DNA of 44,991 nucleotides, taken from a phage. The stretch is taken from sequence record PZ379602.1; one strand, written 5' to 3'. The notes below the pieces were generated by a model. That model was not told the DNA's origin and did no database searches. It worked only from the letters and a program-made list of their open reading frames with translations. Positions 11,132 to 33,229 of the stretch are shown one piece after another (the first letter of the stretch is position 1; each line of letters opens with the position of its first letter). The position numbers and the translations under genes were made by a program.

Positions 11132-11383
11132 ATGTTTGGATTAGATTTCCAGCCAAAGCATTATGATTTAGTGCATGGTAGTAGCGGAGCCAGGTTTAGA
11201 GCGATACCTATTGATGACTGGTTTCCACCTGACTATGTGGATGTTAACGCGAAGACGAAGGACGGTAAATGGGTACAGATTTACTACTCTCCAGCGTGCG
11301 GTAATCTGTGCATGACAGACATGGACCAAAAATTAGCAATTAGTGCTGATTTGTTGGATTTCTGGTTAAAAGAGGTTGAATGA
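11132..11383 (+). CDS. hypothetical protein (83 aa)
   Basis: ORF starting 3 nt after the previous stop. Confidence 0.45.
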   Translation: MFGLDFQPKHYDLVHGSSGARFRAIPIDDWFPPDYVDVNAKTKDGKWVQIYYSPACGNLCMTDMDQKLAISADLLDFWLKEVE

Positions 11384-11464
11384 GGTACGTAGCCCTAGTA
11401 GCATTAGCACCACTGGTTAGCTTTACTATCTTATATTTTATCGTGATGAACTAAGGACTTAAAA

Positions 11465-12600
11465 ATGGCAGCAGCAAAGATTACCAACGAGCAATTAATC
11501 GAAGAACTGAAAAACGGCCTTACTAACAAGGCGATTGCAGAGAAGTATGGTATGAACATTCGTAACGTTGAGATTCGTCGCAGTAAGTTGGCTAAGAGTG
11601 GCTTGTTCGGGCATGGTAACGAAGGCATTAAGAAGCTAGTACCGGACGGATACTTGGTAAAAGGCACTTCGACCATGATTGATGCGGATGGGAATGAGAA
11701 GCTGCGTTGGGTTAAGACTTCAATTGATAATGAGCGCCTTGAGATTCTGCTTGAGCAAGCACGAGAGGCATTTTGTTCTGACTTACCAAAGGCAGTTGCC
11801 AGTGAGTGCCCAGACATTGATTTTGATGATGACACGATGGCTATGTATCCGGTTTTCGACCTTCACATTGGCGCAATGGCTCATAAGCATGAGTGCGGTG
11901 AAAACTACGACACTGCAACAGCAGAGAAGGTAATGAATAGCTTCTTTGATTATGCTGTAGATAAGGCTCCTAAATCAATAAATGCGACATTAGTTTTGGG
12001 GGTGATTTTCTGCATTACGACTCTCTAGAGGCTAAAACACCAGCATCAGGACATATCTTAGACAGCGACAGTCGCTATGCTAAATTGGTTTACGTAGCAA
12101 TCCGCTCAGTGCGTCGTGCGGTTTCAAGGATGCTTGAGAAGCACCAAATCATTGATATTAAAGTAATAAGTGGAAATCACGACGAAGCTGGGATGGTTTG
12201 GTTGCGTGCAGCATTGGCGGCATTCTATGAAGACGAGGAGCGAATTACTGTCGACGTAAGCCCAGCAGCAATGCTGATGACAAGCTTCGGCTCAACATTG
12301 ATTGGTTATACTCATGGTCACCAGATGCGAAAAGCTGAAACTCGACTTACAGTAATGGCTACAGACTTTCGTAAACTATTCGGTAACAGCGAATATGTCT
12401 ATACACACTCGGGCCACTGGCATAGTCAGAAAATTACAGAAACAAACCTGGGTATCGATGAAGTTCATGGTCAGCTTGGCGCGCCAGATGCCTATTCAGC
12501 TAATGGAGGATGGCGCTCAATGCGTCAAGCAGCGGTAATCGTTTACCATAAGCGTTTTGGTGAGGTTGGTCGATTTATTTGTCGCCCTGAGATGTTCTAA
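11465..12600 (+). CDS. calcineurin-like metallophosphoesterase with N-terminal HTH domain; split by a frameshift at a G5 run
   Basis: N-terminal HTH-like NKAIAEKYGMNIRNV; motifs DLHIG, GDFLHYD (only after a +1 correction at 11998-12002) and GNHDE; two ORFs 11465..12028 and 12085..12600 in different frames. Confidence 0.6.
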
Positions 12601-12660
12601 GTAGCACTTTTGTTAATAAAGCCTCAAAGGATTGAGGCAAAATGAATAAACGATAACGAG
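12601..12660 (+). promoter_or_regulatory. promoter-like element variant (box GTAGCACTTTTGTTAATAAA, hairpin GCCTCAA...TTGAGGC)
   Basis: Starts immediately after the upstream stop; weaker -10 hexamer and leader box. Confidence 0.35.
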
Positions 12661-12673
12661 ATGAGGAGTTGTA

Positions 12674-13147
12674 ATGATTTACGTGTTTGATATTGATGGA
12701 ACTATTGCTAACAATGAACATAGAAGCCACCTCTTACCATCTAGTGACCTTCACTTGACTTCAAGTTGGAGTGATTACAATAGAGCCTGTTCTGGAGATT
12801 CACCGATAATTCCAATGATAAACATGATGAATGCGTTAGCTGAGTTATCGCCAGTTTACATCATGACTTCAAGAAGTGACGAAGTCGAATGTATGACGCT
12901 TGAATGGCTTCAGTATAATAATATTAATTATGATGGAATATATATGAGGAGTAGATTGGATAACAGAAATGACTATATCATTAAAGAGATGTGGCTAAAT
13001 GATTTGTGTAATGGTGACAAAGCAAGTGTGATAATCTTTGAGGATAATCCTAATGTTATCAGTCACCTAAGGAATTGCGGATATACTGTAATGTCAGTTT
13101 GTGAATATAAAGAATTACCAAAAGACTGCGAATCTCACGGAGAATAA
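12674..13147 (+). CDS. HAD-superfamily phosphatase
   Basis: Motif I FDIDGT near the N-terminus; IMTSR and FEDN resemble HAD motifs II and IV. Confidence 0.55.
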   Translation: MIYVFDIDGTIANNEHRSHLLPSSDLHLTSSWSDYNRACSGDSPIIPMINMMNALAELSPVYIMTSRSDEVECMTLEWLQYNNINYDGIYMRSRLDNRNDYIIKEMWLNDLCNGDKASVIIFEDNPNVISHLRNCGYTVMSVCEYKELPKDCESHGE

Positions 13148-13148
13148 A

Positions 13149-13703
13149 ATGAAAAAGTTAATCATCCTTAATGCACCCCCTGGTGCTGGAAAAGATACAG
13201 TTGCAGATATCATTGTTAATCTTGGAATTTGCAAGGATAAGGTTTCATTCAAGTCACCAATGTTTAATGTTGCAAAAGGAATACTATCAAGCGATGAGTT
13301 TGATGAATTTATTAAGAATTACGATGACCGAGAGTACAAAGAATCACCACATGAATTTCTTGGTGGAATGACGGTTCGTGAATTTATGATTTGGATTAGT
13401 GAGTCAGTTATGAAGCCAGTCTTTGGTGATGATGTTTTCGGTAAAAGGCTAGCGCAATCACTTGGTGATGGTTGCTATATCTGTGCTGATGGTGGCTTCG
13501 CTAGCGAGATTAATACTCTCATTGATTCAGGGGTTGAAGTTACTTTGATTAGACTTTTTAGGCCTGGCTATACTTTTGATGGAGATAGCCGCTCCTACAT
13601 TCGCGGTGTCTGCGCAAGAGAAATTGACGTTCATGTTGTAGATGGTGATATTGATGGAACCTCTGCTTTGGTAATGCACGTAATAAATAGCACGAATTGC
13701 TAA
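13149..13703 (+). CDS. P-loop nucleotide kinase (dNMP kinase-like)
   Basis: P-loop ILNAPPGAGKDTVADII resembles phage dNMP kinases (compared from memory); start at ATG 13149 just after the upstream stop. Confidence 0.6.
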   Translation: MKKLIILNAPPGAGKDTVADIIVNLGICKDKVSFKSPMFNVAKGILSSDEFDEFIKNYDDREYKESPHEFLGGMTVREFMIWISESVMKPVFGDDVFGKRLAQSLGDGCYICADGGFASEINTLIDSGVEVTLIRLFRPGYTFDGDSRSYIRGVCAREIDVHVVDGDIDGTSALVMHVINSTNC

Positions 13704-30318: not shown

Positions 30319-31259
30319 ATGGCCATTAAATTTGATGCAGAACAAGCAAAAATCACCGCTCACCTTGAGCAAATGGGTGTAGATAAAGCTGATGCTGCTG
30401 GTATCTGGACCGTCAAGCAGTTGACCGCCAACCTGGCGCGTGCGTACGAAGCAGAATATCCGGAAAACTCCGTAGTTAATATCTTCCCAGTAACTAACGA
30501 AATCCCGGCCCATGCAAAGTATTTTGAGTACCCTGAGTTTGACGGAACGGCAATCGCACAGATTATCGCTGATTACTCTGATGACCTTCCGCTGGTTGAT
30601 GCGTTCATGACCGAGAAGCAAGGCAAAGTTTTCCGTTTTGGTAACGCGTTCCTGATTTCCACCGACGAAATCAAAGCTGGCGCAGCAACTAGTCAGTCAC
30701 TGTCAGCTCGTAAACAGGCTTTGGCTTTTGAAGCTCATGACAACCTGCTCGATAAACTGGTATGGTCTGGCTCTGCACCGCACGGCATTCCTGGCGTATT
30801 CAATGCGCCGAACGTTAACCAGGTTGTTGCTGGTACTTGGAACTCCGCGGCTGCTGCTATGACTGATATCACAGCGCTTATCGATGCTATCGAAACAGCT
30901 ACCAATGGTGCTCACACCGCGACTGATATCCTGCTGCCTGCTTCCGCTCGCCGCCTGATGCAAGAACTGGTGCCGAACACCTCTATCAGCTACGCGCAGT
31001 TGTTTGCAACCAATAACTCCGGCATCACTCTGCGTTATCTGCAATTCCTGGATAACTACGACGGTGCTGGTGGCAAAGCTGCACTGGCATTTGAAAAAAT
31101 CCGCTCAACCTGAGTATTGAGATTCCGGAAGTGACGAACGTGCTACCTGGCCAGCCGAAGGATTTGCATTTCAAGTACCCGGTAACCTCTAAAGCGACGG
31201 GCTTGATCATCTATAGGCCGCTAACTGTATCAGTACTGAAGGGCATTACCTACGCCTAA
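30319..31259 (+). CDS. major capsid protein; ORF ends at 31113 but coding continues in the -1 frame to 31259
   Basis: 264-aa ORF after AAAAGGAAT RBS; about 50 more codons of protein-like sequence follow in the -1 frame after an A6 run 31094-31099, up to a TAA and terminator. Confidence 0.75.
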
Positions 31260-31265
31260 TAAATC

Positions 31266-32402: not shown

Positions 32403-32832
32403 AAATATTGGTGGGTTGGCTACATTTACGAATAGTATTGCTGATTGGATTGATAGAGCTGATGATAACTTCTCTGATATTGTTTCTGGCACTGTAATTA
32501 AGGCTGCTAACGCCATCGTTGATTTATCGCCTGTTGATACTGGTAGGTTTAAGGCTAACTGGCAGATTACAGCGAACTCCCCAGCCGCTCAGTCTCTGAA
32601 TGATTACGACAAAACAGGTGGAGATACAAAAAGGTATCTGGCAAGGCAAGCTCGAGCTGTGGCTAATTCACCAGCGACAAAGGTTATCTACATAACTAAC
32701 AGGCTTGATTACGCCTCTGACCTTGAGTATGGATCGTCACAACAAGCGCCAGCAGGTGTACTTGGTGTAGTCAATATCCGGCTTGGGCGTTACTTCGAAG
32801 AAGCCGTAGCTGAAGCAAGGAGTAAACGATAA
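32386..32832 (+). CDS. neck / tail-component protein (by position)
   Basis: 148-aa ORF overlapping the upstream gene. Confidence 0.45.
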   Translation: MLPMARNIGGLATFTNSIADWIDRADDNFSDIVSGTVIKAANAIVDLSPVDTGRFKANWQITANSPAAQSLNDYDKTGGDTKRYLARQARAVANSPATKVIYITNRLDYASDLEYGSSQQAPAGVLGVVNIRLGRYFEEAVAEARSKR

Positions 32833-33229
32833 TGCAGTATGAATTATCTTTGGCGGCAAGGAGGTTTGTGACTGATTTGGTTAAAACGTTTCCAGTCAGG
32901 TATCCAATCTCCTATGAAAACGTAGCCTTTTCCCCTCAAGAAATGGCGGCATGTGGCTGAAGTACGATTATACCGAGGCTGACACAGTAACCTATAGCTT
33001 GAGTCGCAAGTGTAAGTATTATGTTGGCATGGTTCAGGTATCTGTCTTTTTCTCACCAGGTGATGGTGTTGATAGTGCGAGGAGAATTGCTAATCAATTG
33101 GCAGAATCAATGCTTGATGGTACAATGCTTGACACAGGCTACATTTATGAGGGCGGAGTAGTTCACCCGGTAGTGAAGTCAAAATCTGGCTGGTTTATTC
33201 CAGTTCGTTTCTATGTTCGTCTTGACTAA
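32832..33229 (+). CDS. tail completion-like protein, apparently split by a frameshift near 32928-32950
   Basis: 42-codon ORF 32832..32960 and ORF 32951..33229 together give about 133 aa; T4 and C4 runs at 32928-32935 are candidate sites. Confidence 0.4.

What the first reader, a model, noticed from the sequence alone, without database searches (positions are those of the whole stretch)
11465..12600. HTH-fused metallophosphoesterase split at a G5 run
An N-terminal HTH-like domain is fused to a calcineurin-type phosphoesterase (DLHIG, GDFLHYD, GNHDE). Motif II is only read if one G is added at 11998-12002. A DNA-binding phosphoesterase is an unusual architecture and is a candidate regulator or a host-takeover enzyme; if the break is real, the phage carries a recently inactivated gene.
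Basis: partly seen in the sequence, partly recalled or inferred. Interest (0 to 1): 0.55.

Follow-up and report, generated by a model that had tools for sequence, protein, structure and literature searches.

The report
Common phage phosphoesterase, split by sequencing error
The two open reading frames are one ordinary, widely conserved phage gene (a DNA-binding helix-turn-helix domain fused to a metallophosphoesterase), and it looks broken only because the window is one G short in a G6 run, one of at least seven homopolymer miscounts that also "break" the capsid, tail and helicase genes.

Summary
ORF 11465-12028 and the frame-shifted ORF ending at 12600 join into a 378-aa protein if one G is added to the G5 run at 11998-12002. 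That protein has an N-terminal HTH and a calcineurin-type metallophosphoesterase (MPE) domain with all five metal-binding motifs.

1. The architecture is not unusual. The protein is a full-length member of PHROG 704 (E=4e-148). Relatives occur in 2,037 deposited phage genomes and 4,586 50%-identity clusters. They are annotated as "DNA repair exonuclease", "phosphoesterase" or "wHTH domain protein".

2. The break is almost certainly a sequencing artefact.
- A 99.7%-identical independent contig, and two at 95%, read G6 and have an intact ORF.
- dN/dS downstream of the break is 0.02-0.03.
- The window carries the same kind of homopolymer miscount in the major capsid gene, the tail-terminator gene, the helicase (three times) and two intergenic runs. 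Near-identical contigs are intact at all of these sites.

A programmed -1 frameshift is formally possible at U_UUG_GGG. It has no downstream RNA structure and is not conserved.

The enzyme's substrate is untested. The most likely role is a DNA-directed phosphodiesterase or nuclease that acts without a Rad50/SbcC partner. Interest is low.

The parts
11465..12002 (+). 5' part of the HTH-metallophosphoesterase gene (codons 1-179 plus the first base of codon 180), frame 2. ATG at 11465, preceded by AAGGA at 11452-11456.
   Evidence: The full-length match to PHROG 704 starts at residue 4.
11477..11608 (+). N-terminal tri-helical HTH domain (about residues 5-48; helices at 8-16, 21-28 and 32-44).
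11642..11779 (+). Linker module: a beta-hairpin (about residues 63-87) plus a long helix (89-104). No recognised family.
   Evidence: AF2 secondary structure. W82, K84 and D88 are invariant.
11858..11866 (+). MPE motif I, D-L-H (residues 132-134).
   Evidence: Sequence. Invariant in the family as D131 and H133 of P0001.
11998..12002 (+). G5 run. It is G6 in the 99.7%-identical contig L013 and in L021 and L022, and GGA GGA or GGT GGT in more distant relatives. This is the site of the apparent frameshift, inside the Gly-Gly of motif II.
12003..12600 (+). 3' part of the same gene, frame 1, with stop TAA at 12598-12600. It carries the rest of motif II (D-F-L-H-Y-D, 12004-12021), motif III G-N-H-D (12172-12183), motif IV H-G-H (12313-12321) and motif V G-H-W-H (12412-12423).
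   Evidence: dN/dS is 0.023-0.027 against L005 and L007.
11822..12597 (+). Calcineurin-like metallophosphoesterase domain (about residues 120-378 of the repaired protein). It spans the G-run.

Best explanation
The locus is a single gene for a roughly 378-aa protein of the widespread phage family PHROG 704. The protein has an N-terminal helix-turn-helix domain, a short beta-hairpin/helix linker and a calcineurin-like two-metal phosphoesterase domain. The apparent split is not biological. The window under-counts a G6 homopolymer by one base, as it does at several other homopolymers, so the real phage makes the full-length protein. Shown here: family membership, the fold, conservation of all metal-binding motifs, an intact G6 allele in near-identical genomes, and the genome-wide pattern of homopolymer miscounts. 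Inferred: the enzyme is a Mn2+/dimetal phosphodiesterase or nuclease that its HTH brings to DNA. It is expressed with the replication, recombination and nucleotide-metabolism genes that surround it (RecE-like exonuclease, Erf, helicase, VRR-NUC, a HAD phosphatase of the PNKP type, a dNMP-kinase-like protein). It works alone, without a Rad50/SbcC-type ATPase, in DNA-end processing or DNA degradation.
For: PHROG 704 matches at E=4.4e-148 over residues 4-377. There are 691 close homologues, all listed ones intact at 374-383 aa. There are 4,586 50%-identity cluster representatives and 2,037 phage records, 1,955 of them covering at least 80% of the query. Motif residues are invariant. The G6 allele is present in L013 (99.74% nt identity, 377 of 378 aa) and in L021 and L022 (95%). 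dN/dS is 0.045-0.048 upstream of the break and 0.023-0.027 downstream. Other one-base homopolymer discrepancies, where near-identical contigs are intact: 9009 C5 vs C6, 9559 G2 vs G3 and 9290 (one extra base) in the helicase; 31094 A6 vs A7 in the major capsid gene (five contigs at 98.8-99.6% local identity); 32937 C vs CC in the tail-terminator gene; 7286 A4 vs A5; intergenic 12608 T4 vs T5 and 31282 T6 vs T7. No exact copy of the truncated 187-aa product is on record in the contig collection. No SbcC/Rad50-like gene appears in the close relatives' gene lists.
Confidence: 0.85

Rival explanations
1. The frameshift is real and very recent. This isolate lost one G by replication slippage in the G6 run. 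It now makes a 187-aa HTH-only fragment, and the phosphoesterase is inactivated because the gene is dispensable.
For: Homopolymer slippage is a common real mutation. The region downstream of the gene differs between relatives (HNH endonuclease or PNKP-type genes), which suggests an accessory region. At least two deposited phage records also show the gene in several pieces (H67 and H91).
Against: The same kind of miscount breaks the major capsid, tail-terminator and helicase genes in the same window, and a viable phage could not carry those. dN/dS downstream of the break is 0.02-0.03. The 99.7%-identical contig is intact. The truncated product is not on record anywhere else.
Confidence: 0.08
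2. The split is a programmed -1 ribosomal frameshift. The zero-frame sequence U_UUG_GGG fits X_XXY_YYZ, and a -1 slip would yield exactly the LVLGGDFLH protein. The phage would then make both an HTH-only product and the full-length enzyme.
For: The formal slippery heptamer GTT TTG GGG lies at 11993-12001. The zero-frame stop follows 24 nt later, as in some programmed sites.
Against: There is no stimulatory structure downstream: the 88 nt after the site fold no better than shuffles (z=+0.24). There is no Shine-Dalgarno-like element upstream. The site is not conserved: near-identical genomes have an uninterrupted ORF with G6, and others use GGA GGA, GGT GGT or GGC GGC. All listed homologues are single ORFs.
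Confidence: 0.02
3. The protein is a true Mre11/SbcD-type DNA repair exonuclease, as many GenBank records name it, and acts in double-strand-break processing.
Confidence: 0.25

Closest known systems
PHROG 704 ('DNA repair exonuclease'): the phosphoesterase of T1-like phages, e.g. ECH1_60 (WEL95487.1), vB_ecoS_OzMSK_058 'putative phosphatase', JMPW2_063, TR2 UXQ90351.1 'DNA binding protein'
   Same: Full-length homology (E=4e-148; 70-97% aa identity to Braunvirinae members). Same length, same HTH+MPE architecture, and the same position between the small early ORFs and the PNKP/HNH and lysis genes.
   Different: Nothing except the one-base shortfall in the G run. The 3' two-thirds of the gene is a different allele from that of the genome's closest GenBank relative, phage ES (42-70% nt there against about 85% in the first 200 columns of the alignment).
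Mre11 / SbcD nucleases
   Different: No capping domain, no Rad50/SbcC partner, an added N-terminal HTH, and no detectable sequence similarity.
Small stand-alone phosphodiesterases MJ0936 / YfcE (the YfcE-type group of MPEs, by my recollection)
   Different: Those proteins are 165-184 aa with no DNA-binding domain. Here the core carries insertions (low-confidence loops at about 186-201 and 341-349) and an HTH plus linker of about 115 aa.
Mycobacteriophage A10ZJ24 Gp48 metallophosphoesterase (EMBO Rep 2025, PMC12287305)
   Same: A phage-encoded MPE with the five motifs. The paper reports early expression, phosphodiesterase activity and damage to host genomic DNA that silences defence genes. It is a precedent for the 'host-takeover' reading.
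   Different: It is a Cluster A mycobacteriophage family whose motif I lies at residue 10, so it has no N-terminal HTH. Homology to the present family beyond superfamily level was not tested.

Membership tests
Calcineurin-like metallophosphoesterase superfamily | Five metal-binding motifs in order: DxH, GD, GNH[D/E], H, GHxH | tested here: met
   DLH at 132, GGD at 179-181, GNHD at 237, HGH at 284-286 and GHWH at 317 in the repaired protein. All are invariant across 34 homologues.
Calcineurin-like metallophosphoesterase superfamily | Beta-sandwich MPE fold | tested here: met
Calcineurin-like metallophosphoesterase superfamily | Passes the Pfam Metallophos (PF00149 / PF12850) gathering score | tested here: inconclusive
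   The repaired protein has no hit at E<=1. Distant family members P0194 (24.0 bits against a cut-off of 21.5) and P0173 (25.1 bits) pass, so membership is linked transitively.
Calcineurin-like metallophosphoesterase superfamily | Metal-dependent phosphoester hydrolysis | not testable with these tools
   Needs an enzyme assay.
PHROG 704 phage 'DNA repair exonuclease / phosphoesterase' | Full-length profile match | tested here: met
   E=4.4e-148, protein residues 4-377 on profile positions 2-388 of 390.
Helix-turn-helix DNA-binding domains (LuxR/NarL, resolvase, sigma-70 region 4 type) | Tri-helical HTH fold | tested here: met
Helix-turn-helix DNA-binding domains (LuxR/NarL, resolvase, sigma-70 region 4 type) | Significant sequence-profile match | tested here: inconclusive
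   This protein is sub-threshold only (HTH_24 E=0.12, GerE E=0.16; SsrB E=0.08). Relatives pass Pfam cut-offs (P0135 for HTH_8; P0217 for HTH_11, Sigma70_r4 and HTH_24).
Helix-turn-helix DNA-binding domains (LuxR/NarL, resolvase, sigma-70 region 4 type) | Binds DNA | not testable with these tools
   Needs EMSA or a footprint.
Mre11 / SbcD nuclease family | Capping domain C-terminal to the phosphoesterase core | tested here: not met
Mre11 / SbcD nuclease family | Rad50/SbcC ATPase partner encoded in the genome, usually adjacent | tested here: not met
   No such gene appears in the gene lists of close relatives (L005; TR2 complete genome) or next to distant members.
Programmed -1 ribosomal frameshift sites | Slippery heptamer X_XXY_YYZ in the zero frame | tested here: met
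   G TTT TGG GGG read in frame as GTT TTG GGG gives U_UUG_GGG.
Programmed -1 ribosomal frameshift sites | Downstream stimulatory RNA structure | tested here: not met
   Region 12003-12090 folds at MFE -14.4 kcal/mol against a shuffle mean of -15.2, z=+0.24.
Programmed -1 ribosomal frameshift sites | Two-frame arrangement conserved in relatives | tested here: not met
   All relatives have a single ORF. The site reads G6, GGAGGA, GGTGGT or GGCGGC.

The most novel reading that the evidence does not exclude
Setting the artefactual split aside, the HTH-metallophosphoesterase family is present in about 4% of deposited phage genomes and has not been assayed in anything I could find. It could be a DNA-targeted nuclease that phages use for host-genome degradation or counter-defence, analogous to mycobacteriophage Gp48, with the HTH giving it sequence or structure selectivity. 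It might also act with the adjacent HAD-phosphatase and kinase-like genes as a nucleic-acid end-processing module.
Probability: 0.2. Interest if true: 0.45.

Novelty: already known. Interest (0 to 1): 0.1.

Why it matters
For biology it matters little. The gene is a routine, already annotated member of a very common phage family, and the 'inactivation' is a sequencing artefact. It matters for quality control. The window has roughly one homopolymer miscount per 2 kb wherever near-identical references allow a check. Any other 'split gene', 'pseudogene' or 'programmed frameshift' called in this window at a homopolymer should therefore be presumed artefactual. The one open point of wider interest is that the PHROG 704 family remains functionally uncharacterised despite its abundance.

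Tried and rejected
- Programmed -1 frameshifting was rejected. There is no downstream structure and the site is not conserved.
- Direct Pfam and NCBIfam assignment of the repaired protein gave no significant MPE or HTH hit. I needed PHROGs, distant relatives and fold searches instead.
- A sequence search of the family profile against PDB chains gave only sub-threshold LuxR-type HTH hits and no MPE.
- A search for the exact truncated 187-aa product in public assemblies, which would have shown an independent occurrence of the frameshift, found nothing on record.
- A search for a conserved gene partner found none. Contexts differ in Jerseyvirus, Rhodobacter and Vibrio phages.
- A search for a palindromic operator or a promoter near the gene found that promoter-like and terminator-like sites are at chance level. 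The only inverted repeat found within 11300-12700 is a hairpin downstream, at 12609-12650.
- Literature searches for an experimentally characterised member of this family found only genome-annotation mentions and an unrelated mycobacteriophage MPE. One search failed on a term that was too short.

Full report
**What is in the sequence**

The window is a T1-like siphophage genome of the Drexlerviridae, subfamily Braunvirinae. Its closest GenBank relative is Escherichia phage ES, at about 92% identity over 82% of the first 25 kb.

At the stated coordinates an ATG ORF runs from 11465 to 12028 (187 aa). A second frame is open from 11974 to the stop at 12598-12600. A G5 run lies at 11998-12002. Inserting one G fuses the two frames into a 378-aa protein reading ...ATLVLGGDFLHYDSLEAK....

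**What the protein is**

- The repaired protein matches PHROG 704 ("DNA repair exonuclease") over its full length, at E=4.4e-148.
- Pfam and NCBIfam give no significant hit to this protein itself.
- Distant members of the same family pass Pfam's Metallophos gathering score (P0194, P0173). Others pass several HTH families (P0135, P0217).
- In a 34-sequence alignment the residues of all five calcineurin-type motifs are invariant: D-x-H, G-D, G-N-H-D, H-G-H and G-H-x-H (positions in the repaired protein).

So "HTH fused to a calcineurin-type phosphoesterase" is correct.

**The architecture is common, not unusual**

- The word-indexed protein search found 691 homologues. All 120 listed are single proteins of 374-383 aa.
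- The exhaustive search found 4,586 cluster representatives at 50% identity with E<=1e-3. Most are 370-420 aa and many align from the first 5-60 residues, so they retain the N-terminal region.
- tblastn found the gene in 2,037 of 50,697 deposited phage records, and 1,955 of them cover at least 80% of the query. Hosts include Escherichia, Klebsiella, Salmonella, Vibrio and Rhodobacter. The annotations read "DNA repair exonuclease", "putative phosphoesterase", "calcineurin-like phosphoesterase", "winged helix-turn-helix domain-containing protein" or "metallophosphoesterase".

**The break is almost certainly an artefact**

1. Intact alleles exist in the closest relatives.
   - All four GenBank relatives examined have an intact gene, with GGT GGT, GGT GGA or GGC GGC at the Gly-Gly of motif II.
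   - Logan contigs at 88% nt identity read GGA GGA or GGT GGT.
   - Looking up the exact downstream HAD-phosphatase protein found contig L013. Its gene is 99.74% identical in nucleotides (1134 of 1137) and 377 of 378 in amino acids to the repaired gene. It reads TTTTGGGGGGTGAT, which is G6.
   - Two NCBI metagenome contigs, L021 and L022 (95% nt identity), also read G6.

2. Selection has acted on the downstream half. Against L005 and L007, where dS is about 0.63-0.81, dN/dS is 0.045-0.048 upstream of the break and 0.023-0.027 downstream. The 3' half has been under strong purifying selection for essentially all of its divergence.

3. The window has the same defect elsewhere. tblastn with the ORFs of four relatives flagged frame changes in the helicase, the major capsid gene and a minor tail (tail-terminator) gene. 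Alignment to near-identical contigs shows homopolymer miscounts at each site:

   | Window position | Gene or region | Window | Relatives |
   |---|---|---|---|
   | 9009 | helicase | C5 | C6 |
   | 9290 | helicase | one extra base | one base fewer |
   | 9559 | helicase | G2 | G3 |
   | 31094 | major capsid | A6 | A7 (five contigs at 98.8-99.6% local identity) |
   | 32937 | tail terminator | C | CC |
   | 7286 | insertion inside the helicase gene | A4 | A5 |
   | 12608 | intergenic | T4 | T5 |
   | 31282 | intergenic | T6 | T7 |

   In the segments that match a contig at more than 99% identity, every uncompensated indel is a one-base shortfall in a homopolymer on the window's side. A phage with frameshifted capsid, tail-terminator and helicase genes would not be viable. 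The simplest reading is systematic homopolymer under-calling in the sequence, and the G5 run is one more instance.

4. No independent copy of the truncated product exists. The 187-aa protein is not on record in the contig collection.

**Alternatives**

- A real, very recent slippage mutation in this one gene cannot be excluded without reads. I give it about 8%.
- A programmed -1 frameshift is formally possible. The zero-frame sequence GTT TTG GGG fits X_XXY_YYZ, and a -1 slip would give exactly the conserved protein. Against it, the 88 nt downstream fold no better than shuffles (z=+0.24), and the two-frame arrangement is absent from every relative. I give it about 2%.

**How the protein probably works (inference)**

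All metal ligands are conserved, so the protein is very probably an active two-metal phosphoesterase. The HTH argues that it acts on, or is recruited to, DNA.

The gene sits at the end of the early/middle block: RecE-like exonuclease, Erf, SSB, primase, helicase and VRR-NUC. It is followed here by a PNKP-type HAD phosphatase (Pfam E=8.6e-15; PHROG 415) and a dNMP-kinase-like P-loop protein (PHROG 139).

No Rad50/SbcC partner is encoded, and the protein lacks a capping domain. It is therefore not a canonical Mre11/SbcD, despite the common database label. Gene neighbourhoods of distant members differ, so it acts as a stand-alone enzyme.

The only experimental precedent I found for a phage MPE is mycobacteriophage A10ZJ24 Gp48. 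It has phosphodiesterase activity, damages host DNA and blunts defence-gene expression (PMC12287305). It belongs to a different family without an HTH, so it is an analogy only.

**Verdict**

Novelty: already known. Interest: low.

The practical lesson is that homopolymer-associated "frameshifts" in this window should not be trusted.

Noticed in passing
window 8137-9845 (sites 9009, 9290, 9559): The 3' part of the helicase gene is broken into four ORFs by three one-base discrepancies: C5 vs C6, one extra base, and G2 vs G3. Phage ES, L021, L022, L005 and TR2 are intact there. These are almost certainly the same kind of sequencing error.
   Followed up: yes
window ~7177-8263 (ORF 7350-8204): The helicase gene is interrupted by an insertion of about 1.1 kb that carries a LAGLIDADG_2 homing-endonuclease ORF (Pfam E=5e-7). 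The same insertion is in phage ES, L021 and L022. It is absent from L005 and TR2, which have an uninterrupted 664-aa helicase. I did not determine whether it is an intron or an intein. An A4 vs A5 discrepancy at 7286 lies inside it.
   Followed up: partly
window 30319-31260 (site ~31094): The major capsid gene (PF09950 in relatives, 313-314 aa) is frameshifted at an A6 run. Five contigs at 98.8-99.6% local identity and IMM-001 have A7 and an intact gene.
   Followed up: yes
window 32826-33229 (site ~32937): The tail-terminator / minor tail gene (132 aa in relatives, PF13554) is frameshifted: the window reads CCCCT-CAAG where L015 and L016 read CCCCTCCAAG.
   Followed up: yes
window 12608 and 31282: Two intergenic T runs are one base shorter than in near-identical contigs (T4 vs T5 and T6 vs T7). 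This shows that the miscounts are not confined to coding sequence.
   Followed up: yes
window 12674-13147 and 13149-13703: Directly downstream of the target lie a PNKP-type HAD phosphatase (Pfam HAD_PNKP E=8.6e-15; PHROG 415 'polynucleotide kinase') and a P-loop protein (PHROG 139 'deoxynucleoside monophosphate kinase', E=6e-42). In other relatives an HNH endonuclease occupies this position instead. I did not explore a possible nucleic-acid or nucleotide end-processing module with the phosphoesterase.
   Followed up: partly
window 11465-12600 vs phage ES (L001): The gene is mosaic. The first 200 alignment columns, which include the HTH, are about 85% identical to phage ES, and the next hundred 75%. 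The rest is only 42-70% identical, apart from the final short stretch at 81%. Contig L013 is 99.7% identical throughout. This suggests allele exchange downstream of the conserved 5' end.
   Followed up: partly
window 12609-12650: There is an imperfect inverted repeat / hairpin (core GCCTCAAAGGATTGAGGC, 12621-12638) in the 73-nt spacer between the phosphoesterase and HAD-phosphatase genes. It scores as terminator-like only on the minus strand.
   Followed up: no
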